Origin: Escherichia phage A4
DNA length: 64,000 nt
Sequence record: ON286972
Direction: 5' to 3' (one strand)
Under the pieces are notes generated by a model that searched no databases, had not been told where the DNA came from, and was given only the letters and a program-made list of their open reading frames with translations. Shown here in pieces: positions 4,548-59,143 of this stretch (position 1 is the stretch's first letter; the number at the start of each line of letters is the position of its first letter). A program made the translations under genes and the position numbers.

Positions 4548-4576
4548 TTGACATTAAATGTGTTCATTGCTATAAT
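4548..4576 (+). promoter_or_regulatory. sigma70-type promoter (TTGACA-17-TATAAT)
   Basis: TTGACA 4548-4553, 17-bp spacer, TATAAT 4571-4576, ~30 bp upstream of ORF 4609. Confidence 0.55.
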
Positions 4577-14131: not shown

Positions 14132-14156
14132 GAAGCACCCTTTGGGTGCTTTTTTT
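14132..14156 (+). terminator. rho-independent terminator
   Basis: AAGCACCC-TTTG-GGTGCTT then TTTTTT. Confidence 0.6.
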
Positions 14157-14163
14157 ATACTAT

Positions 14164-14171
14164 TATAAATA
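14164..14171 (+). promoter_or_regulatory. T4-type late promoter-like TATAAATA
   Basis: exact TATAAATA ~30 bp upstream of tail-fibre gene start. Confidence 0.35.
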
Positions 14172-14202: not shown

Positions 14203-16887
14203 ATGGCAAAGAAAATATATGGTGGCATTGATGTTACACATAATGTAACAGTCAAAGGTAAGAGAAGTGTTCAGAGCATCAATGATAACGTATTTGATGA
14301 AAATGGCAATCTCACAATAGATGCATATACACAAGATGATATGCTGGAAATGGTTGGTATGTTACCCATTTCTCGTTATGGTACACAAAACTATCTACCT
14401 GCTGGTGTCAATGGTACAACAGTTGGTTCTTCAGAAAATACTAAATCCAGAAATACAAAATTATTTTTGGAAGATGATAACACTTTAGTAATGCTACGTC
14501 CTGGTACAAATGGGAGTACACAAGGGGTTTATTATAGTTATATGACCCAGGCGGTTGGTACAACAAATACAAGTCGTATGGTTAATACTACTCGTGCATA
14601 TAAACCAAATTATTTTGGTGATTATTATGCATACCATTTATATTCATGTAGTGATGATATTACATGTGGTATGGCAAGTAATGGTTCAATTAATAAACTT
14701 TTTGTATCCGTTAATAATGGCACAATGAACGATGCAATGCATACCGGAATTTTAATTGATGACTATGCTTCAGTTAGGCCAATTGGTGAAGTACAATTTG
14801 TTATTCGTGCAGAAGATGGTGCATTATACTTTTTCAGTTTAGATACACCAAGCAATACTCTTAAAATATCAGTGGTTAAAGTTACTTTTAGTCCAAGTAA
14901 TAACCCAGGTGGTGGTACTTATAGTGTTACTAGAATTACTGGTTGGGCCACAAGAACTTTTTATAATGCAATGGTATATGATGACAATATTGTTCCAACT
15001 ATGAAAATAAATTCAACAAATACCAATGATAATCCATACGTTTTAATTCCAAGTGGTATTATTGGGTTTGGTATTTATATGACAGACCCAGATTTATATG
15101 TTGCACAGAAATCAGGTACAACTACATTTAAATTTAGATTATGTGGCGATATGTGGATGACTAACGGCAGATATGATATACGACCACAACACAGTTTTAG
15201 TATGACTTTTGATATTGCTACTAAGCAATGTGCATTGGATAATATGACAACTACTACACCAGTTGCTGTTTATGATAATGGTACAAGCATGAATGAATCT
15301 GGTCCATGTTTAACAACTGACCCGTTTTATCTTCACGCAGGTGGACGTAACATTTTCAGTAATTATTGCTATGTTCCATCAACTGGGGATGCGTTTTGCT
15401 CATTTTCACCAAACCTTGCAGAAGCATTGAATATATCATATGCAAAATACCCACCCAAATCATTATTTGATTTAATGGATGTTAGAAGTGTATCGGCAAC
15501 TGATTTTATTAATGGTGTCGTATCACCAAGATTTGGTTCAGCAGTTGGTTCATTCCAAGTGGGTGTGGAGTTATTACCAAATAACAGTACTAAGCAATAT
15601 TCAAGACGTTCAGGTGATGGTCGTTTTTATCCATCCTATGCTGTACATAAAGCTACCCCGAACTTTACATTTAAGTCTCTAGACTATGGTAATGTTCTTG
15701 GCTATGAACCAACACCAGACCGAGCGTTTATAACTACACCAGAATCTAGAATTTTTATAAGTTCAATTTCTGGTTCAACGGTAACGACTAATGGTGGTGT
15801 TTTGGTGGCTGATAATAGAACATCAACGCCAATTAGTTTTGATTATAAAGGTAATGTACTGAATAATGGTACAATCAGTATGTCACAAGATATAATGAAT
15901 TCCATTAGAAATTCCGAATTTGCTAAAGTTGCTAGTTCATGGAATATATCACCAGCATCAATAAAAACATTATCTGTATTTGTTCCACAACAAACTGATA
16001 TTCCTGTTTTTGGTGTTCTTGCAGCATCTACTACAGCCCGTGGTCTATATATTCGAGTTGTTGAATTGAATGTCAATACAAGAACTGGTGATATTACAAC
16101 ATGGTCGTTCAAACGTTTAGTACATGAAAGTGTTCAAGCTGGGGATTACAAAACAGATACCGCATATCATCTTGATAGTGGAAGTATTGGTATTACTATA
16201 TATGATGCGGGTTCTTTCTACTTCATTGGTGGTGGTATTCCTGGTTTCTTTAATACAGTTGGTAATACAAACTCTCCATTTTTCCGTGCTACAGTGGATA
16301 AAGCGACAGCCCAATTTAATAATTTCCATATAGCTGGTGCACGTCCGATCTATGCATTAGATGGTCAACCATTCGCTTTACCTAACATTGGGTTTGGTAT
16401 TCTTCAAAGTATAGATAATAATAACAAAACAATTTTTAGAACATATGGTACAACATTAGCGGATTATAATGCATGGACTGATAAAGGAAATCCATTTATA
16501 TGTCTTGTTTCCCAAGATGTTGCTCAAGGTTTTATTATATACTTCACCGAAGAGACACCAGTACTGATATCCGGTAAACACTATACATTACCAATATCAA
16601 ATATAGATTTAACAACTGTGAAAGCAAATCCTGCCAATACTACATTTTATGTGTATATTAAATTAGTACAGGGTATTGCAAACTATCATATATCAACAAC
16701 TGAATTAGCTGAAACTCATTCAATATTCTGGATTGGTACAGTGAAAACTGATAATTTACAAATAACCGAAATTAATATAGAAAAACGTTCTCGTTTAGAC
16801 CTGTTTGGTTCATCATTCAACGCTGCCGGAAGTTCCTTCCCAGTAAGTTCTGGGTTCCCTTCAAGTTCTGGTAATGTGAATTGGTAA
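14203..16887 (+). CDS. tail fibre protein
   Basis: 894-aa Ser/Thr/Asn/Gly-rich; C-terminal module shared with 16898-17488 and 17499-20240. Confidence 0.55.
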   Translation: MAKKIYGGIDVTHNVTVKGKRSVQSINDNVFDENGNLTIDAYTQDDMLEMVGMLPISRYGTQNYLPAGVNGTTVGSSENTKSRNTKLFLEDDNTLVMLRPGTNGSTQGVYYSYMTQAVGTTNTSRMVNTTRAYKPNYFGDYYAYHLYSCSDDITCGMASNGSINKLFVSVNNGTMNDAMHTGILIDDYASVRPIGEVQFVIRAEDGALYFFSLDTPSNTLKISVVKVTFSPSNNPGGGTYSVTRITGWATRTFYNAMVYDDNIVPTMKINSTNTNDNPYVLIPSGIIGFGIYMTDPDLYVAQKSGTTTFKFRLCGDMWMTNGRYDIRPQHSFSMTFDIATKQCALDNMTTTTPVAVYDNGTSMNESGPCLTTDPFYLHAGGRNIFSNYCYVPSTGDAFCSFSPNLAEALNISYAKYPPKSLFDLMDVRSVSATDFINGVVSPRFGSAVGSFQVGVELLPNNSTKQYSRRSGDGRFYPSYAVHKATPNFTFKSLDYGNVLGYEPTPDRAFITTPESRIFISSISGSTVTTNGGVLVADNRTSTPISFDYKGNVLNNGTISMSQDIMNSIRNSEFAKVASSWNISPASIKTLSVFVPQQTDIPVFGVLAASTTARGLYIRVVELNVNTRTGDITTWSFKRLVHESVQAGDYKTDTAYHLDSGSIGITIYDAGSFYFIGGGIPGFFNTVGNTNSPFFRATVDKATAQFNNFHIAGARPIYALDGQPFALPNIGFGILQSIDNNNKTIFRTYGTTLADYNAWTDKGNPFICLVSQDVAQGFIIYFTEETPVLISGKHYTLPISNIDLTTVKANPANTTFYVYIKLVQGIANYHISTTELAETHSIFWIGTVKTDNLQITEINIEKRSRLDLFGSSFNAAGSSFPVSSGFPSSSGNVNW

Positions 16888-16897
16888 TGGAGATAAT

Positions 16898-17488
16898 ATG
16901 GCTTATAAATTTAGATCTGATGTGGAAGCGTATGCTTCCGTTAAATCACAAGGAAAAAATACTGGGACCACGATAACTGATCGTTCTGGTAATGTGTATC
17001 AAGCTGATGCTAATGGGAATGTTGATGTACCACTCATGAGTACAGATGATGTGAATTACATTACCAGTTCCTTTCCGTTATCACAATTTGGTTCACTTTA
17101 CAGTACTGAACCATTGGGTATTTCTGCTGCTGGTTTCAATTTAACTTTCAGTAAAGAATTACCATTGTTCATGGCGGGAGCGGTTTATACCCTCCCTGCT
17201 AAAACAATAACGGACCCAGGAGTTACTGGAACTAATATTGAAACACATTATGTATATGTTATATTAGATGTTGGGGTAGCTGACTACCTCATTTCTAAAA
17301 CTCAACGCCCTGAAAGTAGTGTTAATATGTACATAGGACAACTGACAGTTTTCCCAGATGGCATTACAGGGGTCAGTATAAATAAAGTGTCAAGATTTGA
17401 CGACTTCAGAGTAAGTGCTACAAAAATTGGTTCAGCTATCCCTATCAGTTCTGGTACACCAGATGTGAATAGTGGGACAGAATGGTAA
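16898..17488 (+). CDS. tail fibre-related protein (shares fibre C-terminal module)
   Basis: 196 aa; C-terminus ..SRFDDFR..AIPISSGTPDVNSGTEW parallels the two large fibre proteins. Confidence 0.5.
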   Translation: MAYKFRSDVEAYASVKSQGKNTGTTITDRSGNVYQADANGNVDVPLMSTDDVNYITSSFPLSQFGSLYSTEPLGISAAGFNLTFSKELPLFMAGAVYTLPAKTITDPGVTGTNIETHYVYVILDVGVADYLISKTQRPESSVNMYIGQLTVFPDGITGVSINKVSRFDDFRVSATKIGSAIPISSGTPDVNSGTEW

Positions 17489-17498
17489 AGGAATATAT

Positions 17499-20240
17499 AT
17501 GGCTTCGAGACGAATTATAGGAAACGCAGAAATACTAGGGAATTTGAAAATTAATGGAAAGTATGCATTACGTTCCTTTAATGGATTCCCTGCTGATTCT
17601 GCTGGTAATATCACTTACCAATATTATGACAAAGCGGAAGTGGATCAAATGTTTGATATGCTTCCTGTTTCAAGGGTAGGTGATCAAGATTACCTACCGA
17701 TGAGTATTAACGGTACATTTGAAGGTGCTTCTTCCTTTTCATTTGCAAAAATAATGCAACCTTGTATCATTGAAAATGATGGTACTGGTGTAATTTTACG
17801 TGCAGGTACAAATGGAAGTTCTTATGGTTTCTATTATGCTTATATAAAAAATATAAGAGATATAGAAACATTAACTCAAGATAATATAATTACAACCAAC
17901 ACGATGTATAGACCTTCTGTGCTACCAAGTACTGATTACATTTATGAATTTTATGGGTCAAATGCATATGAATTACTATTTTGGGAATCAACTGATAGAG
18001 CATCATACTACCTTACATTAACAAATGAAACATTAAATGAATCAGCACACAAACATTGCAGAATTCCAAAAACAGCAATAACAAATAAACCAATCTATGC
18101 ACACATCGTAAATGATTCAGTTTATATATGGTGTATGGATTCAAGTGTATTGAGTAGTGTTCGCGGGTGTGCATTTATCATATACACAGTACCTTTAACT
18201 GCATTTAATACTGGTTCAGTTTCGACAGTAACACAGATTAGTGGTTATTCAGGAAGAACTATAAGAAATGTAACATACACTGCATCTAATAATATTCGTG
18301 TTTATGATAGTTATTCAGCGTTGGGTTCAGGTGGTGATGCACTAATAGCATATGATAATGGTGTTTCCAGAATAGATTATTGGGAAAATAACGCATTTAA
18401 TACCCAAGCAGTTCTTAGTCCAGATGGTACAAAAATAAGAGTAGCGATATATCCAGGGTTTCGTGTCTTAACCGCAACAAAAACATCTGGTGTATATGCA
18501 CTTGGTATCAGCTTTACATATGATATCAGTACTAAAACAATGACACTTGACGGTTCTGAACGTGGTCCAATCAGAGTATCAGCTAATGCATCAACTGGTA
18601 GTATAACAGTGAGTAACCCGTTTTCAATCAATATGGAAAACTTTACAGGGTTTTATGATGGTGCACTTGGTAACTATGGTTCAATCTGTCAAACTTCTGA
18701 TGGTTTTGTTTTCACTACCAAAGCAAGATGGTCATCCATGCCGACCTATGCAGTACAAACATACAAAGTTTCTGGTACACCTTATGATAGTTGGGTTGCT
18801 AAAACACGTACTGGTAGTAATTTAAAACGCGTAGAAGTAATGCCCGTTTATGGTTCACCTGTAGGTGAAAACTTAATAGGTGTTCGTTTCGTTGATAAAC
18901 GTAAGATACTTGTTGCATGTTCTGGTACTGCTGATGGAATTTCTTATGGTTATGATAGTACAGTTTTTACTGAAATAGGTGAGAATCCAACTTATAGTTA
19001 TAAAAACTTGGAACAAAATACCACAATGAATGGTTTTGCACCATCAGGTAATAGACACTATTTAAGTACTGATTACAAATATGCAGGTATGGTAACATTG
19101 GTTGATGCCAATGGAAATGTCAGCACTTATGGATCTTCTTTAATAGAAGGTATCGATAAACCAGCTTATGGAAAATTCGACCCTGTTACAATGGACTTTA
19201 ACAGTGATAGATATGAAATTTCAGGAACTACATTATCAGGTATAGGTTATAATGCCGTTGCTAAAGCTGGATTGACTGGAATAACTGAACATAAAACTGT
19301 TTTTTATTATGTACCTGATACTACATATTCTAAATCTATTGCAGTCACTTCTGCACTAAACGGTACTACCAACGTGTGTTATATTATTTTTTCCGAAATA
19401 TCATGTAGTGCACTGGGTACAAGTGGTACTATAATTTTACGTGGTATTAGTGTTGATACAGCAAGATATACATCAATCACGAATACATTCCAAATTTCAC
19501 CAAATGAAATGATCAAACGTTGGGCTGGTATGACTGTTGCTAAGTTTAGTGGTTTTAACTACTTAGGTGTGAACATTTTATATGGCATTGATACCCCAGG
19601 TTGGACTCGTTATCCTAACATGATTGCTAAAGTGAAAAATGGTATTATTTCAAGTCAACGATATATGGAAACAACTTATATTTCAAACGCACAATTTGAT
19701 ATAGGTACAATTCCAGGGATTGGGTTTGGATATTACCAAATGAACAAAAACGATTATCAAACTAAATCAGTTTTTGCTGTATGTGGTACTACTGAAGCAG
19801 ATATGGATAAACTAATATCTGGTAATGAAACGATATCACAGTACTTAGTTGTTGCTTCACAGGATGTGGCACAAGGGTTCAACGTGTACTTTTCACAAGA
19901 AGTACCAGTTTTCTTGGGTGGAAAGTTTGCAAAGATACCACCGACTATGATAGACTTATCTACCATAAGTACTACACCAGATAATTCAACATTCTACATA
20001 TATGCGGTTATGGATAGAGGTACATCTACAGCTTCGTATCAGATATCACTATATCAATTATCAGAAACTATGACATCAACCTACATTGGTAAGATAGTAA
20101 CTGATGCTAATGGTATTGCATCAATCGAGTCTGAAAAAGTGTCCAGATTCTTGCTATACCGCCCAAGTACCTACAATCGTGGTTCTGCTATCCCAGCTAG
20201 TTCTGGGTTACCATCACAATCTGGTACTCGTTGGAGTTAA
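17499..20240 (+). CDS. tail fibre protein
   Basis: start moved to ATG 17499 with AAAGGAATATATATGG, same context as 14203; C-terminal VAQGF..SRF..AIPASSGLPSQSGTRWS. Confidence 0.55.
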   Translation: MASRRIIGNAEILGNLKINGKYALRSFNGFPADSAGNITYQYYDKAEVDQMFDMLPVSRVGDQDYLPMSINGTFEGASSFSFAKIMQPCIIENDGTGVILRAGTNGSSYGFYYAYIKNIRDIETLTQDNIITTNTMYRPSVLPSTDYIYEFYGSNAYELLFWESTDRASYYLTLTNETLNESAHKHCRIPKTAITNKPIYAHIVNDSVYIWCMDSSVLSSVRGCAFIIYTVPLTAFNTGSVSTVTQISGYSGRTIRNVTYTASNNIRVYDSYSALGSGGDALIAYDNGVSRIDYWENNAFNTQAVLSPDGTKIRVAIYPGFRVLTATKTSGVYALGISFTYDISTKTMTLDGSERGPIRVSANASTGSITVSNPFSINMENFTGFYDGALGNYGSICQTSDGFVFTTKARWSSMPTYAVQTYKVSGTPYDSWVAKTRTGSNLKRVEVMPVYGSPVGENLIGVRFVDKRKILVACSGTADGISYGYDSTVFTEIGENPTYSYKNLEQNTTMNGFAPSGNRHYLSTDYKYAGMVTLVDANGNVSTYGSSLIEGIDKPAYGKFDPVTMDFNSDRYEISGTTLSGIGYNAVAKAGLTGITEHKTVFYYVPDTTYSKSIAVTSALNGTTNVCYIIFSEISCSALGTSGTIILRGISVDTARYTSITNTFQISPNEMIKRWAGMTVAKFSGFNYLGVNILYGIDTPGWTRYPNMIAKVKNGIISSQRYMETTYISNAQFDIGTIPGIGFGYYQMNKNDYQTKSVFAVCGTTEADMDKLISGNETISQYLVVASQDVAQGFNVYFSQEVPVFLGGKFAKIPPTMIDLSTISTTPDNSTFYIYAVMDRGTSTASYQISLYQLSETMTSTYIGKIVTDANGIASIESEKVSRFLLYRPSTYNRGSAIPASSGLPSQSGTRWS

Positions 20241-20246
20241 AAAATT

Positions 20247-20276
20247 AAGCCTGTCTATTGACAGGCTTTTCTTTTA
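20247..20276 (+). terminator. rho-independent terminator
   Basis: 9-bp stem AAGCCTGTC/GACAGGCTT, 4-nt loop, T-rich tail. Confidence 0.55.
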
Positions 20277-20286
20277 TCCGTATAAT
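20258..20286 (+). promoter_or_regulatory. sigma70-type promoter (TTGACA-17-TATAAT) overlapping terminator hairpin
   Basis: TTGACA 20258-20263, 17-bp spacer, TATAAT 20281-20286. Confidence 0.5.
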
Positions 20287-20308
20287 GCTAAAAAACTAGG
20301 AGGAAACT

Positions 20309-20869
20309 ATGGTACAATCACGTTTTAGACCACCGCTGTCACCAGCACAGTTACAACGTTTAAAAGAAAAAGAGCAGCACTTTCAGAATACCCTAGTAGT
20401 TCGTTTGCTATGCAAAAGTGTAACTCTTAAAGATTTTGTGAAAACCGATAATGATCGTAAATCACTTATCGAACTTAAGTACAAGTTAAGTAAGCATAAA
20501 CTATATGGATTACTGGCAGAATACACCCAAAATCCATTCAGTGATCGTTGGTCTATGGTTCAAAAAAAACTGTGGGGTGGTGATGAAGAATTCATACTAC
20601 GCGATTTAAAAAATGCAATCATGTTTAAGGTTGAGTATACACCAGCAGGGATTGAACACAGAACCGAAGAAACTATCATTCAATCAAGAGATTTGTCATG
20701 TGTTGTTTCTTCAAACTTCGGTGTTCATTATGATATGCTTGATGATGATGAGTTAATGATTCTGTTCCATGTCATTATTGGTGCTGAAGATATTAAAGAA
20801 AAGTTATCACAAATTGAAGAAGAACAGCGTAAATTCAAAATCCAAAAGAGAATAACTGATTTATATTAA
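20309..20869 (+). CDS. hypothetical protein, paralog family member 1
   Basis: shares K[ST]D[NE]DR[KR]..L..K..LS[KS]H motif and C-terminal L.LFH with next two genes. Confidence 0.5.
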   Translation: MVQSRFRPPLSPAQLQRLKEKEQHFQNTLVVRLLCKSVTLKDFVKTDNDRKSLIELKYKLSKHKLYGLLAEYTQNPFSDRWSMVQKKLWGGDEEFILRDLKNAIMFKVEYTPAGIEHRTEETIIQSRDLSCVVSSNFGVHYDMLDDDELMILFHVIIGAEDIKEKLSQIEEEQRKFKIQKRITDLY

Positions 20870-20878
20870 GAGGTTACT

Positions 20879-21379
20879 ATGTTTTTCAAAAAGAAAAATA
20901 ATGATCACAAAAGAGAAAATGTAGAGTGGTGTACATTAATTCTTCCAGTACTGATGAAAAGCTATTCTTTAAAAGAAATTATCCGTACTGATGAAGATCG
21001 TAGAACTATACTTAAAATTAAAGAAATGTTAAGTTCTCATTCTCTAATGAAACTAATCACAGACCTAGTTAAAGAACCATACGGTGAACGTTGGTTATAT
21101 GAACCAGTATTCATATATGGTAATCATATCAACCGTGTAAAATTGTTTGATACCGAAACTAAGGTTGATTTTAATGCAGTAACATATTCATCTAAAGATT
21201 ATGATGAAAAACATACATTTGTTTATATTAACGGAGATGCGAATATTCTACCTAAACATGAACAAATGTTTTTGTTTCATTTACTCGTTGCACTTCGTGA
21301 GCTTGAAACAAAGTACAAGAAGTTAGAATACGAGCAGCATAAACTTAATGAATTTAATAAATTAAAAGGATTATACTAA
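20879..21379 (+). CDS. hypothetical protein, paralog family member 2
   Basis: RTDEDRRTILKIKEMLSSH motif; tandem to paralogs. Confidence 0.5.
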   Translation: MFFKKKNNDHKRENVEWCTLILPVLMKSYSLKEIIRTDEDRRTILKIKEMLSSHSLMKLITDLVKEPYGERWLYEPVFIYGNHINRVKLFDTETKVDFNAVTYSSKDYDEKHTFVYINGDANILPKHEQMFLFHLLVALRELETKYKKLEYEQHKLNEFNKLKGLY

Positions 21380-21882
21380 TGTTCTTCGGTAAACATAAAG
21401 TAAAAGATGATGGTATTCTTCAGTACTTAGTTGCGTTGATTTTAAACAAAAGTACTTTATTAGTACCTAATATTAAATCAGACAAAGATCGCAGAGAAAT
21501 TATTCAAAACAAATATCTTCTTTCAAAATGTGATCCTGTTATCTATGCATTTTGTAAGTACTGTTCAAAAAACTTGTTCAGTATTCATGTAGATTTTGAA
21601 AGACACGAGAGTAGAACAGATTCTAGGATCAACGTGTATATAATTAATGATTTAAATCGAGGGAATCGAGGGTTCATGTTCTGGATGGACGGACGTGATA
21701 TACGTGTGCGTATTAAAATGTCGGTTGGGTGGAAGGATTTTTCAACTTCTGTATCTGATTATCTTGTACTTCACGCACTATATAACAGTATTACTAACGT
21801 GAAAGATATCGACAAGAAAATTCAGGAACAAAAAGAACTGGATGATGCAAAGAACGAATACTTACAATATTACAGGAGTTAA
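21379..21882 (+). CDS. hypothetical protein, paralog family member 3
   Basis: KSDKDRREIIQNKYLLSKC motif; tandem to paralogs. Confidence 0.5.
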   Translation: MFFGKHKVKDDGILQYLVALILNKSTLLVPNIKSDKDRREIIQNKYLLSKCDPVIYAFCKYCSKNLFSIHVDFERHESRTDSRINVYIINDLNRGNRGFMFWMDGRDIRVRIKMSVGWKDFSTSVSDYLVLHALYNSITNVKDIDKKIQEQKELDDAKNEYLQYYRS

Positions 21883-21885
21883 TAT

Positions 21886-22287
21886 ATGGATCTTGATGAT
21901 GTGTATAGCACCATAAGACAGATGGATTCGTATAAAAAAGTATATAGTGGTTACAAGAGTGATAAACAATTTTATGGAATCGGGGAGTATGATGTAATAT
22001 CATTCGAATACGATGATACTGGTGAAAGTTCCATTAATATTGTTTGCCCTCGTGACCGTGAAAATAACTTCATGTACGTTGAAATCAATAATGATGGTTT
22101 ACACTTTACTAAAATATTAAATGGTGGCAAACAATCTATTTCTCTGGATTTATCCGAAGAAGAAAAGTTCTTTCAAGAAGATACTATAATCAATCTTGGT
22201 TTTAGTTTATCAGAATACAAAGTTCTTCATAAAGATTTCATGAAGTACTATAATGGGTTTCTTAAGGAGCTAACATTACATCTATGA
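21886..22287 (+). CDS. hypothetical protein
   Basis: 133-aa ORF. Confidence 0.45.
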   Translation: MDLDDVYSTIRQMDSYKKVYSGYKSDKQFYGIGEYDVISFEYDDTGESSINIVCPRDRENNFMYVEINNDGLHFTKILNGGKQSISLDLSEEEKFFQEDTIINLGFSLSEYKVLHKDFMKYYNGFLKELTLHL

Positions 22288-23525
22288 ATAATAACAAATT
22301 TCTTGAACAAACAATTGTGAAGCACTTAGCAGGTTCACAAGCGTATGGAACCAGTACACCTGAAAGTGATACGGATTATCGTGGTATTTTTCTTGCTAAC
22401 AAAGAATTCATCCTTACGCCTTTTTATAATGTAAAGGAAGTTTCTGATTCAAGAGAAGAAGATACTAAATTCTATGAACTAAACCAGTACTTAAGACTAT
22501 ACACAGAGGCTAACCCAAATATCCTTGAATCACTATGGGTCGATCCTGAACACATCGTAGAAAGTACTGAGATCTATGATTATCTACGCACTTTCAATCA
22601 ACAATTGCTTAGCTCAAAGATTGCACACTCTTATACTGGTTATGCCTATAATCAGGTTAAGCGTATGTCTAATCACCACGGGTGGATGGATAAAGAGCGT
22701 ATTGCTGAAAAACGTCTAAATGAAATCTTAGAAGATTTTCCAGTAGATGAAACTTTAGCATGGATGTATGAAAACTTCCCACACTATTTGGTAGAACGTT
22801 TAGATACTTCTAAACTACATCCATTTAATGCTAAGAAAATAGATTTTGAAAAATACATGCGTGATACTTCATTGCAGTTAGTTTCAACTAATCCGTTGAA
22901 ACAGTATCATTTTGTACGTTTAGTACATAATTACAGTACTGATAAAGTACTAGACCGTGATTTCAACTTATTGGATTATAACAATGGGTACGAATTAATT
23001 CATTACGGTGAAAATATCTTTGGTGTTATTATCAATCCTAATGAAAGTACAGTTAACGCGGATGGTTCTTTACGTTATTTCAACAAAGAACGCAGTACTG
23101 AAGAATTGAAAGTACGACCTGAACTCATTGTTAAATTCAATGAAAAAGAATACAGTGAGAACAGTGAGAACCGTAAAAGTTATCACAAATGGAAAGAGAA
23201 TCGTAATGCTAAACGTGCAATTCTTGAATCCAAACACGGCTACGATTGCAAACATGCTATGCATACGATCAGACTTTTGAATACAGCCGAAGAAGCATTA
23301 CAAAGCGGTATTATTCTGGTGAAACGTCCTGATGCTGATATGCTAATGGATATTCGCAACGGTAAGTGGAAATATGAAGAAGTCATGGAGTACTTTAACG
23401 ATAAGGTAAAATATATTCGTGAAGTACTTTATCCTAAGTCAGTACTCCCGAAGAAACCAGATATTGCATTAGCTGCGAAAGTACTGTTAGATATTCGCGA
23501 AATGCAGTGGTACGGTAAGAAATAG
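22284..23525 (+). CDS. Pol-beta-superfamily nucleotidyltransferase-domain protein
   Basis: N-terminal GSQAYGTSTPESDTDYRG fits GS-x(9-13)-DxD nucleotidyltransferase signature; 413 aa. Confidence 0.45.
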   Translation: MNNNKFLEQTIVKHLAGSQAYGTSTPESDTDYRGIFLANKEFILTPFYNVKEVSDSREEDTKFYELNQYLRLYTEANPNILESLWVDPEHIVESTEIYDYLRTFNQQLLSSKIAHSYTGYAYNQVKRMSNHHGWMDKERIAEKRLNEILEDFPVDETLAWMYENFPHYLVERLDTSKLHPFNAKKIDFEKYMRDTSLQLVSTNPLKQYHFVRLVHNYSTDKVLDRDFNLLDYNNGYELIHYGENIFGVIINPNESTVNADGSLRYFNKERSTEELKVRPELIVKFNEKEYSENSENRKSYHKWKENRNAKRAILESKHGYDCKHAMHTIRLLNTAEEALQSGIILVKRPDADMLMDIRNGKWKYEEVMEYFNDKVKYIREVLYPKSVLPKKPDIALAAKVLLDIREMQWYGKK

Positions 23526-23609: not shown

Positions 23610-24239
23610 ATGGCTATTTCCTTTTACACCACAATGGAAGTTACTGGTGTTGTTAAATTCTCGAAAGCTGAATTTAAAAAACCAATATTAACATTTGATA
23701 CATCGTCTTTTAATATTATCAGAACACACGAAATTTCTGGTGCAGATAATCATTTAAGTAATTCAGTGATTACAACACTAGGAACAGATAGCAACCAATC
23801 GTTACAGATTGCTGCGTGGGCTGGGATGACAGAGACTAATAACGGTGTTAAAATACAAGCACGCACAACAAATGACACAAACAGTACTGAATGGGTTACA
23901 TTATATGATAGCTCCAACAGTACTGTGACAGTATTACCACAAGCTGATAGTTACGATATAGATACCAGTACTGGTAATAAAGTTTTTAATTTAACTCTAA
24001 ACAAACCAAACACTACAATTAATATCCTTCCTAATGCTAAAACTCAAGTATATGATTGCACTGTTATCATAGAACAAGGCACAGGTTCAAATCTTGTAAG
24101 CTGGAGTTCTAATGTGAAATGGTCATTCAATCGTCAAGTTCTTCTTTCATATGAACAATCCCAAAAAGATATAATTTCCCTAGAAACCTATGATGGTGGT
24201 ATTACATGGTACGGTGCTCTTATTCGAGCAGGGGTATAA
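23610..24239 (+). CDS. hypothetical protein (Ser/Thr/Asn-rich, possibly virion-associated)
   Basis: 209-aa ORF, composition like fibre proteins. Confidence 0.4.
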   Translation: MAISFYTTMEVTGVVKFSKAEFKKPILTFDTSSFNIIRTHEISGADNHLSNSVITTLGTDSNQSLQIAAWAGMTETNNGVKIQARTTNDTNSTEWVTLYDSSNSTVTVLPQADSYDIDTSTGNKVFNLTLNKPNTTINILPNAKTQVYDCTVIIEQGTGSNLVSWSSNVKWSFNRQVLLSYEQSQKDIISLETYDGGITWYGALIRAGV

Positions 24240-24240
24240 A

Positions 24241-27024
24241 ATGACAAAATATAACATAGATAACGTTATACAATTACTTTATGGTCATCATAGATTTTTA
24301 GAAAGAAATACAGGTGATACAGTAGATCCAACAAAACAGCATTACGTAATAAACGATCAAGGTGTATTAGCAAATAACCGTCATTTTATTAATTTCAGTG
24401 CAATGGAAGGTCAACCAAATGGTGACGGGACAACTGAGGGTCAAAGTCTTTTGATCATTGGTTATATCTATGCTTATCTTGCAACTAATGATGAAATGTT
24501 TTTGGATAAAGCTAAGTATTATTGGGACGCATATCACAAATATTTTTATGCTAATAGACAGTTTCCAGATCCACCACGTCCATTACAATGTAACTGGATT
24601 GTGAATGCTAAAGAACCAATACTCGCCAACTGGCCTTTGTCAGATGATGATTGGCCTACTCACGGTGGATTCAAAGGCGTAGAATTTAATTTCATAGATG
24701 GTCAATGTCGTATTCCACATGATGAGCCGTATTATGGACAATTCCTTGATAAAGTTACTTTTGCATTCAAAGGTGCACTTGCATGGAATCAGATTAACGC
24801 GTCAGTACAGGCAATATTACCAGATGGTAGTACTGACTGGGATAACCCTGGTGAACAATATGATGTTGATTGGGTAATTGATTACTTAGGACGTAAAGTA
24901 GATTATAATGGGGATATTATCAGTACTGGACACTATGAGTCAGAAAAAGGAACAGTACAGGTAAAAGACAGAACATTAAATGGTGTTTATAAATTAAACT
25001 TCGCTAATAGACAACCTGTTGAATTTGGTGGTACGTACATCGCACGTAATCAGATGCAACACAACCGTCCATTACATGTTCCTATTACTCTTGACTTTGC
25101 TGATAACGCATCTGATGCTGAATTATGGTTCAGTGATGCTTCTTACTTGTTATATAAAATAACAAAGGAAAGAAAACATTATCTTGGATGGAAATGTTCT
25201 TTACTTACTTGTTATGCATATGGTGACATTGATGCATTTGATAAATTCTTCAGACAAAGTACTAAAGTATCTTCGCCATTTACTGATGGTATTTCATATG
25301 ATTATTTTTATCCAAGTGATGCGATTGCTACATATTCCCGCAACGTTGATGGTTATATCAGAATACGTCAGGAACAAAGTGCACAAAGTACTCTTGAACA
25401 GCAAGCAATATGGTTCAGACTAAATTCTGATTCGAAATTGGTTGTTGATTATGGTGGAATATGTGATGATGGTTCTCCATTAACATTTAAGCCAGTACTT
25501 GACTTATCAAAAACAAAAAGTGATAATGATGCTATAAGATACCGTTGTGGTTTACCACTGAGTACCAGTACTGAAATTAAACACTCTGAAACTCCATTAA
25601 GTGTTTTTGTCCGTGAGAAGAAAGATGATGGTAGCTCTTATATTATGGCTGACAGCCGTTCAGTTGTTGATTATGGGGGAGCCGTATATAAAATGGAATA
25701 TAGTACTGATATTCTTGGTTCCAGAGTTGATACTATATGCGATATCAGTACTGGTGAAGACGGTGGTATAGTTGTAGGATTTTGGTTATTAGATTCAGAA
25801 AAAGCACCTATTAATTCTTTTACATATCGTTCATATGAAGATGATTTTAATATCAGAATCGAAGATGATAATGGATGGCGTTGGTGGTGGATGATTCCTG
25901 CAACACATGGTGAATGGACCACAATAGAATTGAAACCAGAGGATTTACATCTTTCTGGATATCAGCCAAATCACAGCGATGATCCTGACCCAGAAGCCCC
26001 AGTATATAGTGAATTGGAAGATTTCACTCTATTACCCGATACAACACCAATCAATGGAACTGCTAAAATCCAATGGTATTGTATAAATGATATTCCACCA
26101 CTATATACATCCGAAAATGGCGATGACTATACAATGACATTCTCTATTACTGTTTCTGGAACAGCAGCATATTCGGCGTATTTGGGGGATTGTGTAATTA
26201 AAGATTATGAATTAAATTCGTTACGTTACACTCCTGGTACTATTCCATTTTCAAATATTACTGATCCATATGCAAATCAGTACGGTGGGTGGCGTGGACT
26301 ACCATATCCTGGATACCAATACCCAGTAATTTACTGCTTTAAAGACGAACCAGTAGACCATACAAGAATGGGTAATATGTTGGATTTTATGAAAGATTCA
26401 CAAGAATGGTTTACAAACCAATTCGGTACAGTTGGTCCTTGTGCACAGGCATATGTATGGAACCGCTGGGACAACCTCAAATATGGTGAACCTGATACGT
26501 TTACAATGTTACACTGGGGTGATGAAGCATGGAGTGGATATGAACCACGTGCATTCTTTGGTGCGGCTCGTTGCTGGCAAGAATTAGCAGAGCGTGGTGA
26601 AGAACCACCAGTTGAATTGGTTGAGTTCTGTGAGAACTGGATTAACTTTTTAATTCAATTCCAGGATGAAAATGAAGGTCGTTCACCAACAATCTTTAAT
26701 AAAGATGGAACAGTTGAAGGCCCAGCATGGGATTTCACAGGACATATGTGTGGATTGTGGTTGGCAGGTGGTAGTGCATGTGGCTTAGCTGGGTGCAAGA
26801 TTGAACGCTTACCAGAAATGGTTGACAGATTGGTTGATGAATTGCAAAATAACTATGTAATAACAAAACCAGGTTCACCGATGAACGGCTCATGGAGTCC
26901 AGCAGTTCGAGAAGATTCAGACAATGGGATGTTCTTTGGATTTTGGGCTGGTGAAATCATGCGTGGTCTTGGTTTGTACTCAATGTACAGACTGAACTCA
27001 CACAATCGTTATAGTGAATTATAA
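24241..27024 (+). CDS. large hypothetical protein (927 aa), Trp/Tyr/Asp-rich
   Basis: start set at ATG 24241 (MTKYNIDN) rather than overlapping track start 24190. Confidence 0.45.
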   Translation: MTKYNIDNVIQLLYGHHRFLERNTGDTVDPTKQHYVINDQGVLANNRHFINFSAMEGQPNGDGTTEGQSLLIIGYIYAYLATNDEMFLDKAKYYWDAYHKYFYANRQFPDPPRPLQCNWIVNAKEPILANWPLSDDDWPTHGGFKGVEFNFIDGQCRIPHDEPYYGQFLDKVTFAFKGALAWNQINASVQAILPDGSTDWDNPGEQYDVDWVIDYLGRKVDYNGDIISTGHYESEKGTVQVKDRTLNGVYKLNFANRQPVEFGGTYIARNQMQHNRPLHVPITLDFADNASDAELWFSDASYLLYKITKERKHYLGWKCSLLTCYAYGDIDAFDKFFRQSTKVSSPFTDGISYDYFYPSDAIATYSRNVDGYIRIRQEQSAQSTLEQQAIWFRLNSDSKLVVDYGGICDDGSPLTFKPVLDLSKTKSDNDAIRYRCGLPLSTSTEIKHSETPLSVFVREKKDDGSSYIMADSRSVVDYGGAVYKMEYSTDILGSRVDTICDISTGEDGGIVVGFWLLDSEKAPINSFTYRSYEDDFNIRIEDDNGWRWWWMIPATHGEWTTIELKPEDLHLSGYQPNHSDDPDPEAPVYSELEDFTLLPDTTPINGTAKIQWYCINDIPPLYTSENGDDYTMTFSITVSGTAAYSAYLGDCVIKDYELNSLRYTPGTIPFSNITDPYANQYGGWRGLPYPGYQYPVIYCFKDEPVDHTRMGNMLDFMKDSQEWFTNQFGTVGPCAQAYVWNRWDNLKYGEPDTFTMLHWGDEAWSGYEPRAFFGAARCWQELAERGEEPPVELVEFCENWINFLIQFQDENEGRSPTIFNKDGTVEGPAWDFTGHMCGLWLAGGSACGLAGCKIERLPEMVDRLVDELQNNYVITKPGSPMNGSWSPAVREDSDNGMFFGFWAGEIMRGLGLYSMYRLNSHNRYSEL

Positions 27025-57529: not shown

Positions 57530-57557
57530 TTGACAGTACAGATTAACGTGATATAAT
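57530..57557 (+). promoter_or_regulatory. sigma70-type promoter P1 (TTGACA-16-TGaTATAAT)
   Basis: TTGACA 57530-57535, extended -10 GTGATATAAT ending 57557, A-tract upstream. Confidence 0.55.
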
Positions 57558-57622: not shown

Positions 57623-57650
57623 TTGACAAGCCTGAACGATGTGATATAAT
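57623..57650 (+). promoter_or_regulatory. sigma70-type promoter P2 (TTGACA-16-TGaTATAAT)
   Basis: near-identical to P1, 93 bp downstream; A-tract upstream. Confidence 0.55.
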
Positions 57651-57817: not shown

Positions 57818-59143
57818 ATGAGCGAACAACAAGATATCCTGAACGTAAAACTGACTCCTAAGAAAGCAAAAATGGCTATGGCTCTGGCAGATAAAATTCA
57901 GGATAGTCTGATGATTTGGGGTAGCCCTGGTATCGGTAAGTCTGCGATTGCACGTCAATACGCTGACGAGAACTATCCTCTTCGTAAGGATAACTTGGCT
58001 AAAATCGAGTTCATGAAACAACAAATTGAAGTTGATACTGAAAATGCTGATGCACTTCGCCGCGAACTGGCAGCGTTTGAAGCAAAACTGATTGACCAAG
58101 ACACTAACTTCATCGACTTCCGTCTGTCACAGATTGAACCAAGTGACCTACGTGGTATCCCAGTCCCTGAAAAAGTGTTCCTGGATATGGATGGCAAACA
58201 ACTGATTGAATCTGAACTGGAAACAGCTAAAGATTACATTGCTGAAACAGCAGTTGTATGGGCAGCACCTAAAGTACTGAAACTGTCTCCAGATTGGAAA
58301 GGTGTTATCCTGTTTGACGAAATTAACTCTGCTATGCCGATTGTACAGGCAGCGTCTTATCAGCTAATCCTCGACCGTTGTGTTGGTGAGATGAAGCTAC
58401 CTAAGACTGCACTGATTCTCGCAGCAGGTAACCGTGAAACTGATGGCGGCGTAACGTTCTCTCTGGCAACGCCACTACGTGACCGTATGACCCACATCGA
58501 AATGGTTCCTTACCATCAAGATTGGATTGACGATTACGCGATTGCTAAGCGTTTGAACCCAGGTACTGTTGCGTTCATCAACAACACTGGTGCTAAGTAC
58601 TTCAACACCCTTAGCCCACAAGATCCTTCTCACAGTGGTGGTACTTCTCCACGTTCATGGGAAGCAGTAGCACGCTACGAAGACCTGAAGAAAGGCAACA
58701 ACATTGATAAAGAAGTGTTCCGTGCTCTAATCGCTGGTCGTGTTGGTGAAGGTGTAGCAACTGAATATATCGAATACGTAGAAAACGTATCTAAACTACC
58801 AGATACTATGTCCATCCTACAGGGTGAGATTAAAGAGATTGATGCAACGCTGGATATTTCTGCGAACTACTTCATCTCTCTGAATCTGGTTTATAAAATT
58901 ATCGACCTGTACAATGAGAAGCAAGAACAACGTCTTCCAGTTGAAGAGTGGGGCAAGCTGTGCAACAACTTCATCACCTTCCTGGACCGTAACTTCTCCG
59001 AAACTCAGGCAGAACTGGCAGTACTAGCAATTCGTACCATCACTCAACATAAGGTAGCGATTGCGTACAAAGATGTTCCAGCGTTCAAAGACTTCGTTAT
59101 GAAGTACTCTGACCTAGTACGCAAAGCACGTTCTCTTGGTTAA
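57818..59143 (+). CDS. AAA+ ATPase (MoxR/CobS-like)
   Basis: Walker A WGSPGIGKS, Walker B ILFDEINSA; CTG/CGT-rich codon usage unlike neighbours. Confidence 0.65.
   Translation: MSEQQDILNVKLTPKKAKMAMALADKIQDSLMIWGSPGIGKSAIARQYADENYPLRKDNLAKIEFMKQQIEVDTENADALRRELAAFEAKLIDQDTNFIDFRLSQIEPSDLRGIPVPEKVFLDMDGKQLIESELETAKDYIAETAVVWAAPKVLKLSPDWKGVILFDEINSAMPIVQAASYQLILDRCVGEMKLPKTALILAAGNRETDGGVTFSLATPLRDRMTHIEMVPYHQDWIDDYAIAKRLNPGTVAFINNTGAKYFNTLSPQDPSHSGGTSPRSWEAVARYEDLKKGNNIDKEVFRALIAGRVGEGVATEYIEYVENVSKLPDTMSILQGEIKEIDATLDISANYFISLNLVYKIIDLYNEKQEQRLPVEEWGKLCNNFITFLDRNFSETQAELAVLAIRTITQHKVAIAYKDVPAFKDFVMKYSDLVRKARSLG

What the first reader, a model, noticed from the sequence alone, without database searches (positions are those of the whole stretch)
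20309..21882. Tandem triad of paralogous genes downstream of a consensus promoter
Three consecutive ~165-185-aa ORFs share a K[ST]D[NE]DR[KR]x[IL]..K..LS[KS][HC] block near the N-terminus and an L..LFH/LHAL block near the C-terminus but are otherwise diverged. Tandem diversified paralogs straight after a strong promoter are typical of host-takeover or anti-defence families in large phages. The function is unknown.
Basis: seen in the sequence. Interest (0 to 1): 0.45.

Follow-up and report, generated by a model that had tools for sequence, protein, structure and literature searches.

The report
Early-promoter paralog trio in jumbo phage
Three neighbouring genes of a giant E. coli-type phage are real, ancient copies of one small orphan protein family that is switched on early from a strong host-type promoter, but what the proteins do is still unknown and can only be narrowed to an accessory host-interaction role.

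Summary
ORFs A (20309-20869), B (20879-21379) and C (21379-21882) are paralogs: BLASTP A-B 1e-15, A-C 3e-6, B-C 5e-3, with PHROG cross-hits. They follow a perfect TTGACA-17-TATAAT promoter.

The genes head a five-cistron operon, A-B-C-gp505-like-RlaP RNA-repair nucleotidyltransferase. A terminator hairpin separates this operon from the late structural operon upstream. The 3' arm of that hairpin carries the -35 box, and the module is conserved with compensatory changes in 8 phages.

The proteins are basic. They are absent from the phAPEC6 virion proteome and from phage EJP2. Copy number varies from 0 to 4. They evolve under purifying selection (dN/dS 0.07-0.37) and re-assort as deeply diverged alleles.

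The best reading is early, accessory, non-enzymatic binders acting in host takeover or counter-defence. A tail-fibre chaperone role is disfavoured. This is an ordinary-to-moderate finding: new members of a catalogued but uncharacterised family.

The parts
20247..20268 (+). Intrinsic terminator hairpin (9-bp stem AAGCCTGTC/GACAGGCTT, loop TATT, followed by a T-run). It ends the upstream late structural operon.
   Evidence: Terminator scan. RNA fold gives -15.8 kcal/mol, z -6.2. In 8 phages 100% of cells are paired, 3 pairs show compensatory changes, and 0/500 shuffles reach this.
20258..20286 (+). Consensus sigma-70 promoter TTGACA-17-TATAAT. The -35 hexamer lies in the loop and 3' arm of the terminator, and the terminator's T-run forms the spacer.
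   Evidence: 12/12 match. 4 perfect sites in the window against 0.29 expected. Conserved at the same position in ph0011, 121Q, JNE01, 7t3, Hallingskeid, EJP2, L008 and BF.
20298..20303 (+). Shine-Dalgarno AGGAGG of gene A, 5 nt before the ATG.
   Evidence: Read directly from the sequence.
20309..20869 (+). Paralog A (186 aa), A-type; positional ortholog of 121Q gp502.
   Evidence: dN/dS 0.07-0.17.
20879..21379 (+). Paralog B (166 aa), B-type; positional ortholog of 121Q gp503. This is the protein modelled by AF2.
   Evidence: AF2 pLDDT 86.7. dN/dS 0.17-0.23.
21379..21882 (+). Paralog C (167 aa), C-type (phrog_7868); ortholog of 121Q gp504 and RaK2 ORF002.
   Evidence: dN/dS 0.26-0.37.
21886..22287 (+). 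Fourth cistron, gp505-like (133 aa, phrog_22376). Unrelated to the trio and much better conserved (60-68% identity across genera).
22284..23525 (+). Fifth cistron, an RlaP-family (PF10127) Pol-beta nucleotidyltransferase. Its start overlaps the stop of the fourth cistron.
   Evidence: Pfam E 2e-17. phrog_388. RlaP biochemistry from PMC12776372 and its jumbo-phage context from PMC7824862.

Best explanation
A, B and C are ancient paralogs of a small orphan protein family whose placeable members are all in RaK2-like jumbo phages. The ancestral arrangement is an 'AB-type' gene followed by a 'C-type' gene, and the AB-type gene is duplicated in Asteriusvirus.

They are the first three cistrons of a five-gene operon (A-B-C-gp505-like-RlaP nucleotidyltransferase). 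The late structural operon upstream ends at an intrinsic terminator. The 3' arm of that terminator is the -35 box of a consensus sigma-70 promoter. The operon should therefore be read by unmodified host RNA polymerase early in infection (inferred, not measured).

Each protein is a compact basic alpha/beta domain. It has four short N-terminal helices carrying the conserved KS..L / D.DRR.II..KY.LSK surface, a variable four-stranded sheet, and a 40-residue C-terminal helix. There is no catalytic signature.

The most likely role is as non-virion, accessory, stoichiometric binders of host macromolecules, either nucleic acid or nucleoprotein, or a defence component. In this reading they act early in infection as part of an accessory counter-defence or host-takeover island. 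The variable sheet would provide target specificity and the C-terminal helix possibly oligomerisation.

Shown: paralogy, operon layout, regulatory signals, fold prediction, distribution and evolutionary pattern. Inferred: early timing, binding function, and the host as target.
For: - Paralogy and orthology.
- Promoter/terminator module: a perfect sigma-70 promoter fused to a terminator, conserved in 8 phages with covariation. CBB, a related jumbo phage, is predicted to use RpoD-like promoters for early genes and ATAAATA for late genes.
- Late motifs on the neighbours: TATAAATA at 14164 before the 14203 gene, and ATAAATA before the tail fibre gene at 23610.
- Virion proteome: phAPEC6 lists the flanking gp314c, gp315c and gp323c but not the trio orthologs gp319c-321c.
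- Accessory nature: 0 copies in EJP2, 1 weak in Hallingskeid, 2 in RaK2, 3 in 121Q/JNE01/7t3/the window, and 4 in Serratia phage BF. The position is always the same and the order is always AB-type then C-type.
- Real coding genes under constraint: dN/dS 0.07-0.37.
- Allelic re-assortment: against ph0011 the trio is 33-40% identical while the flanks are 85-94%. ph0011 versus 121Q shows the reverse pattern. Gene trees within the trio are incongruent.
- Structure: the confident AF2 model has no enzyme-like neighbour. Median pI is 8.9, and conservation is highest in the N-terminal helices and lowest in the sheet.
- Neighbourhood: an RlaP RNA-repair NTase here. In BF the family members are interleaved with Thg1 and a DNA methyltransferase.
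Against: - There is no expression, binding or phenotype data for any family member.
- A consensus promoter is a sequence match, not proof of early timing.
- Stable 1:1 orthology and purifying selection are less typical of arms-race families than lineage-specific expansion is.
- Absence from one virion proteome does not prove the proteins are non-structural.
- No homology to any known anti-defence or host-takeover protein was found.
- The promoter is retained in EJP2, where the trio is missing. It therefore serves the operon as a whole rather than the trio specifically.
Confidence: 0.5

Rival explanations
1. RNA-repair cofactors. In this reading the family members are RNA/tRNA-binding adaptors that work with the co-operonic RlaP nucleotidyltransferase (and with Thg1 in Eneladusvirus) to restore tRNAs damaged by host anticodon nucleases.
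For: The family lies upstream of an RlaP gene, within 0-4 kb, in every genome where it was found: the window, 121Q, ph0011, JNE01, RaK2, BF, 7t3 and Hallingskeid. In BF a Thg1 gene sits between family members. The proteins are basic, and the conserved helix is rich in K/R/S/Y. RlaP repairs RNA 3' ends, and RNA repair is a recognised jumbo-phage counter-defence theme.
Against: EJP2 keeps gp505-like plus a 380-aa ORF at the NTase position (not scanned) but has no family member. Bacterial RlaP acts in vitro without such partners (abstract). The trio re-assorts independently of the NTase, being 33-40% identical where the NTase is 87%. No RNA-binding fold was detected.
Confidence: 0.2
2. Assembly chaperones for the neighbouring large virion proteins or tail fibres (including the 'hairy' fibres). 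They would be non-structural but needed for folding or attachment.
For: The trio lies between genes for virion proteins: the phAPEC6 gp323c ortholog upstream and tail fibre genes downstream. It was not found in the virion, as expected for a chaperone. It has a long C-terminal helix.
Against: A terminator and a separate sigma-70 promoter set it apart from the late operons. There is no co-variation with either neighbour. ph0011 has window-type upstream proteins (88-94%) but a 121Q-type trio (87-96%), and it lacks the downstream fibre genes altogether. EJP2 keeps both ~900-aa proteins and has no trio. There is no similarity to known fibre chaperones in Pfam or PHROGs.
Confidence: 0.08
3. Phage-directed DNA-binding regulators, for example factors of the early-to-middle switch, that dimerise through the C-terminal helix.
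For: Basic pI. A helical N-terminal domain with one highly conserved helix, followed by a long terminal helix. An early-type promoter.
Confidence: 0.12
4. The ORFs are not functional genes, and the similarity reflects chance or decaying duplicates.
For: There is no functional annotation anywhere. GC is slightly lower in B (0.29 against about 0.35).
Against: Orthologs are conserved across at least five phage lineages. dN/dS is well below 1 in three independent comparisons. Ribosome-binding sites are strong. The AF2 fold is confident.
Confidence: 0.01

Closest known systems
PHROG families phrog_18641 and phrog_7868 (function unknown); 121Q gp502/gp503/gp504, phAPEC6 gp321c-319c, RaK2 ORF001/ORF002, Serratia phage BF gp144/147/149/150
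   Same: Same family, same genomic position, same order (AB-type then C-type), and same upstream terminator-promoter module.
   Different: The window's copies are only 33-40% identical to those of the nearest sequenced isolates, although the flanks are 85-94% identical. Closer alleles exist only in two Logan metagenome contigs.
Small basic early proteins of T4-type phages that bind host DNA or nucleoid proteins (e.g. T4 Ndd, MotB). This is an analogy from general knowledge.
   Same: Size (about 150-190 aa), basic charge, predicted early sigma-70 expression, and accessory status.
   Different: No sequence or fold relationship was detected with anything in Pfam, NCBIfam or the PDB. The analogy is functional speculation only.
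XRCC4/PAXX/SAS-6 'head plus helical stalk' architecture; NTF2-like and LolA-like alpha+beta folds
RlaP-centred RNA repair systems (PF10127 with RNA ligases)
   Same: The trio is co-operonic with an RlaP NTase. In BF it also neighbours Thg1.
   Different: No RNA ligase or kinase/phosphatase is adjacent. The family is not part of the described RlaP systems. EJP2 keeps gp505-like and an ORF at the NTase position but has no family member.
Acidic DNA-mimic anti-restriction proteins (Ocr/ArdA type)
   Different: The family is basic (median pI 8.9, range 6.0-9.6), and the fold is not a DNA mimic.

Membership tests
phrog_18641 / phrog_7868 (orphan RaK2-like jumbo-phage family) | Significant full-length match to the family HMM | tested here: met
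   A 5e-33 and B 9e-24 to phrog_18641; C 2e-27 to phrog_7868. All three also cross-hit the other family.
phrog_18641 / phrog_7868 (orphan RaK2-like jumbo-phage family) | Syntenic position: after the ~900-aa virion protein gene and before gp505-like and the RlaP NTase | tested here: met
   Same order in ph0011, 121Q, JNE01, RaK2, 7t3, Hallingskeid, L008 and L009.
Paralogous gene family (the finding's own claim) | Pairwise similarity beyond chance between all three ORFs | tested here: met
   BLASTP 1e-15, 3e-6, 5e-3. A family HMM scores all three at 1e-38 to 1e-44, with no other ORF in the 64-kb window at E<=1. That HMM was built from an alignment that includes them.
Sigma-70 (early-type) promoter | -35 TTGACA, 17-nt spacer, -10 TATAAT, correctly placed upstream of the first cistron and conserved in relatives | tested here: met
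   12/12 match, enrichment, conservation. Activity and timing are not testable here.
Intrinsic terminator | G+C-rich hairpin followed by a U-run, with covariation supporting the stem | tested here: met
   100% paired, 3 compensatory pairs, 0/500 shuffles; z -6.2.
Tail-fibre / virion assembly chaperone | Co-occurrence and co-variation with the cognate structural gene | tested here: not met
   ph0011 combines a window-type upstream module with a 121Q-type trio and lacks the downstream fibres. EJP2 has the structural genes but no trio.
Acidic DNA-mimic anti-restriction proteins | Strongly acidic protein | tested here: not met
   pI 7.8, 8.8 and 9.1 for A, B and C; family median 8.9.
Known anti-phage defence / counter-defence catalogue | Match to a PADLOC, Pfam or NCBIfam model | tested here: not met
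   No hits. No Pfam family is shared by more than 1 of the 46 members. A dedicated anti-defence HMM library was not available.
RlaP RNA-repair system accessory component | Obligate co-occurrence with RlaP, and physical or functional interaction | tested here: inconclusive
   Linked to RlaP in all 8 genomes that carry the family. EJP2, with gp505-like and an ORF at the NTase position, lacks the family. Interaction is not testable here.
Helix-turn-helix DNA-binding regulators | Recognisable HTH or winged-helix domain | tested here: not met

The most novel reading that the evidence does not exclude
The family is a previously unrecognised, new-fold class of early jumbo-phage counter-defence proteins. 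In this reading an ancestral AB-type/C-type pair binds and neutralises host RNA-targeting defence nucleases, or shields tRNA. It would work together with the downstream gp505-like protein and RlaP NTase as a dedicated anti-'translation sabotage' operon. The deeply diverged, freely re-assorting alleles would match different host defence repertoires.
Probability: 0.15. Interest if true: 0.65.

Novelty: new member of a known kind. Interest (0 to 1): 0.35.

Why it matters

The compact terminator-with-embedded-promoter module, conserved with covariation across genera, is a tidy example of insulation between a late and an early transcription unit. It also appears to serve as a recombination joint.

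In itself the finding is modest, because no function is established and the family is already catalogued in PHROGs as 'unknown function'.

Tried and rejected
- **Pfam, NCBIfam and PADLOC scans** of the three proteins, and Pfam on all 46 family members, gave no consistent hit.
- **PDB sequence search with the family profile** gave nothing below E 0.04.
- **Word-indexed protein search** found only 2 and then 5 relatives. The exhaustive HMM search found 45 clusters. Two of these (P0011, P0038) are spurious long tandem-repeat proteins.
- **The search for related loci** with the family alignments failed because no stretch was conserved enough. With gp505-like as the anchor it returned only RaK2 and 121Q.
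- **Contigs of distant members** were too short to give context.
- **Paralogy of the fourth ORF** (gp505-like) was rejected by hhalign.
- **Positive selection** is not supported by pairwise dN/dS. There are too few close sequences for site models.
- **Other features** in the region: no Rfam family, no tRNA, and no DNA-level repeat linking the copies.
- **Literature**: no paper with expression or functional data on these genes was found.

Full report
**What is in the sequence**

Three + strand ORFs occupy exactly the reported interval: A 20309-20869 (186 aa), B 20879-21379 (166 aa) and C 21379-21882 (167 aa).
- A is preceded by AGGAGG (20298-20303). B and C have their own purine-rich ribosome-binding sites, and the B stop overlaps the C start (TAATG).
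- Two more cistrons follow without a break: a 133-aa ORF (21886-22287) and a 413-aa ORF (22284-23525) whose start overlaps the previous stop.
- Antisense ORFs in the interval are all 69 aa or shorter.
- No Rfam family, tRNA or DNA-level repeat linking the copies was found.

**Is the similarity real?**

Yes.
- BLASTP gives A-B E 1e-15 (25% identity over 161 aa, end to end), A-C 3e-6 and B-C 5e-3.
- At profile level A and B belong to phrog_18641 and C to phrog_7868, and each also hits the other family.
- A family HMM built from 46 sequences, including A, B and C, scores the three ORFs at 1e-38 to 1e-44 and finds nothing else in the 64-kb window.
- The fourth ORF is unrelated (hhalign probability 2%).

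**Where the window comes from, and synteny**

The region matches Asteriusvirus jumbo phages (121Q, PBECO4, phAPEC6). The nearest isolate is Escherichia phage ph0011 (about 85% nucleotide identity in the flanks). A Logan contig, L009, is nearly identical to the window (93-100% amino-acid identity per gene).

The trio corresponds position for position to 121Q gp502/503/504, ph0011 WAE77096-98 and phAPEC6 gp321c-319c.

The conserved order is: two ~900-aa proteins, then the family members, then gp505-like, then an RlaP-family nucleotidyltransferase (PF10127, E 2e-17). This order recurs in RaK2, JNE01, Salmonella phage 7t3, Erwinia phage Hallingskeid and, with insertions, Serratia phage BF.

**Breadth and internal structure of the family**

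An exhaustive HMMER search of 1.84 billion cluster representatives found only 45 clusters. Two of them are spurious repeat proteins. All genuine members are single-domain proteins of 115-209 aa.

By tblastn the family occurs only in Escherichia, Salmonella, Klebsiella, Erwinia and Serratia phages; the Klebsiella, Erwinia and Serratia hits and most Escherichia hits are RaK2-like jumbo phages, other records were not inspected.

Copy number at the syntenic locus:

| Phage | Family copies |
|---|---|
| EJP2 | 0 |
| Hallingskeid | 1 (weak) |
| RaK2 | 2 |
| Window, 121Q, JNE01, 7t3 | 3 |
| BF | 4 |

Subfamily HMMs show stable orthology. A matches gp502, B matches gp503 and C matches gp504. RaK2 ORF001 is AB-type and ORF002 is C-type. 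In 7t3 and BF the first member scores as AB-type and a later one as C-type, each with further weak or ambiguous members. The order is always AB-type first. The ancestral state is therefore probably one AB-type gene plus one C-type gene, followed by lineage-specific duplications.

**Structure**

With the 46-sequence alignment, AF2 gives a confident model of B (pLDDT 86.7, pTM 0.76). It comprises short helices at 17-25, 31-34, 38-52 and 57-65, a four-stranded antiparallel sheet (72-117), and a 40-residue C-terminal helix (126-165).
- Conservation is highest in the N-terminal helices, which carry KS..L and D.DRR.II..KY.LSK. It is lowest in the sheet, where the indels also fall. A nearly invariant Tyr ends the protein.
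- The family is basic (median pI 8.9).
- BFVD returns only uncharacterised phage proteins; the few named top hits are from jumbo phages.
- No Pfam, NCBIfam, PADLOC or PDB-sequence match exists.
- Nothing suggests an enzyme.

**Regulation**

The upstream 913-aa gene stops at 20240. A 9-bp hairpin (20247-20268) with a T-run follows (-15.8 kcal/mol, z -6.2).

The -35 hexamer TTGACA (20258-20263) lies in the loop and 3' arm of this hairpin. The T-run is the 17-nt spacer, and TATAAT lies at 20281-20286. This is a 12/12 promoter, one of four in the window against 0.29 expected.

The composite module is conserved at the same site in eight phages spanning several lineages. All stem cells pair, three stem positions show compensatory double changes, and 0/500 shuffles reach this. 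The four stem pairs that overlap the -35 box are invariant. BF has the same design in a shifted register.

EJP2 keeps the module although it lacks the trio. The promoter therefore serves the operon rather than the trio alone.

The neighbours carry T4-like late motifs. A terminator plus TATAAATA (14164) precedes the 14203 gene, and ATAAATA precedes the tail-fibre gene at 23610. In the related phage CBB, RpoD-like promoters were assigned to early genes and ATAAATA to late genes.

In the phAPEC6 virion proteome the flanking gp314c, gp315c and gp323c were detected, but gp319c-321c were not.

I infer an early, non-structural operon embedded between late structural operons. Timing has not been measured.

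**Evolution**

Against ph0011, the flanking genes are 85-94% identical at the protein level. A, B and C are only 34, 33 and 40% identical, and gp505-like is 60%.

Between ph0011 and 121Q the pattern is reversed. The trio is 87-96% identical, while the upstream 196-aa and ~900-aa proteins are 44-51%.

The junction coincides with the conserved terminator-promoter spacer (85% nucleotide identity).

Within the trio the relationships are also incongruent. A of the window is 98% identical to L009 and 70% to L008. C of L008 and C of L009 are 95% identical to each other, and each is 92-93% identical to the window.

Pairwise dN/dS for A, B and C is 0.07-0.37 in three comparisons. dS is raised where amino-acid identity is low.

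The low identity therefore reflects re-assortment of old, selectively maintained alleles. It does not reflect ongoing positive selection or decay.

In the window-L008 and ph0011-121Q comparisons the order of conservation is A < B < C < gp505-like; against L009, C is the least conserved.

**Functional inference**

The evidence assembled above is:
- predicted early sigma-70 expression;
- absence from a virion proteome;
- dispensability and variable copy number;
- allele shuffling;
- a basic, non-enzymatic fold with a conserved polar helix and a variable sheet;
- a neighbourhood of counter-defence-type genes (RlaP RNA-repair NTase here; Thg1 and a DNA methyltransferase interleaved in BF).

Together this best fits accessory early proteins that bind host macromolecules in host takeover or counter-defence (confidence about 0.5).

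A more specific link to RNA repair is possible (about 0.2). It is weakened by EJP2, which keeps gp505-like and an ORF at the NTase position but has no family member.

A fibre or virion chaperone role is disfavoured (about 0.08). The trio has separate regulation, does not co-vary with either neighbour, and is absent from EJP2 while the structural genes remain there.

A phage-directed DNA-binding regulator is not excluded (about 0.12), but no HTH was detected.

**Comparison with known families, and novelty**

The three proteins are members of PHROG families 18641 and 7868, both annotated 'unknown function'. They are divergent alleles of 121Q gp502-504. No characterised family is related by sequence or fold.

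They are not acidic DNA mimics, not known defence or anti-defence proteins in the libraries available, and not fibre chaperones by the co-variation test.

I class this as a new member of a known but uncharacterised kind.

Noticed in passing
window 20247-20286 (also L002, L005, L014, L015, L016, L008, L004): An intrinsic terminator and a consensus sigma-70 promoter are fused. The -35 box sits in the hairpin loop and 3' arm, and the T-run is the spacer. The module is conserved in 8 RaK2-like phages with 3 compensatory stem pairs. It coincides with the recombination junction between the upstream structural module and the trio.
   Followed up: yes
window 23610-27024: A two-gene tail-fibre cassette (209 aa and 944 aa; phrog tail fibre hits) is present here and in 121Q and JNE01. 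It is absent from the otherwise closest relatives ph0011, L008 and L009, where the ACP-like gene directly follows the NTase. This looks like an insertion/deletion of a host-range module.
   Followed up: partly
L009 11409-13688 (ortholog of window 22284-23525): In the near-identical Logan phage contig the RlaP nucleotidyltransferase ORF is 759 aa instead of 413 aa and contains a LAGLIDADG domain (PF14528, residues about 552-627). This suggests an intein or homing-endonuclease insertion that the window lacks.
   Followed up: partly
window 14203-20240: The 196-aa and 913-aa proteins upstream (and the sampled C-terminal part of the 894-aa one) exist in at least two deeply diverged allelic forms. 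The window is 88-94% identical to ph0011 but 40-58% to 121Q/JNE01. The module re-assorts independently of the trio. The phAPEC6 ortholog of the 894-aa protein is in the virion.
   Followed up: partly
window 14133-14171: A terminator hairpin (AAGCACCCTTTGGGTGCTT plus T-run) is followed by a T4-type late promoter motif TATAAATA about 32 nt before the 14203 ATG. A similar ATAAATA precedes the tail-fibre gene at 23610.
   Followed up: partly
window 4548-4576, 57530-57557, 57623-57650: Three further perfect TTGACA-N16-17-TATAAT promoters (4 in total against 0.29 expected). They are candidates for other early transcription units. The two near 57.5 kb lie in tandem upstream of the gene at 57818.
   Followed up: no
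L004 (Serratia phage BF) 3327-9143: In BF the four family members are interleaved with a Thg1 tRNA-His guanylyltransferase, a 100-aa ORF that looks DUF4326-like by eye (not scanned), and a DNA methyltransferase, all upstream of the RlaP NTase. The locus behaves as an accessory or counter-defence island that accepts insertions.
   Followed up: partly
L001 4810-5376 (ph0011 WAE77096.1, ortholog of A): The GenBank note 'Phage major capsid protein of Caudovirales' on this 188-aa protein is not supported. Family members have no Pfam hit, and the predicted fold is not HK97-like.
   Followed up: partly
window 17472-17499: The mechanical ORF call starts at GTG 17472, overlapping the previous gene. Homologs and gene calls in L008 and L009 indicate that the real start is ATG 17499 (913 aa).
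   Followed up: partly
window 21204-21280 (inside gene B): A 34-nt imperfect inverted repeat (76% complementary, 9-nt gap) lies within the coding sequence. It may be a chance feature of AT-rich DNA. GC dips to about 0.29 across B against about 0.35 in the flanks.
   Followed up: no
N-termini of B and C and their orthologs: B- and C-type proteins share an N-terminal MFF(G/K)K / M(I)SFFKKK peptide followed by a basic, low-confidence tail. A-type proteins instead begin MV(Q/K)S...PP. The significance is unknown.
   Followed up: no
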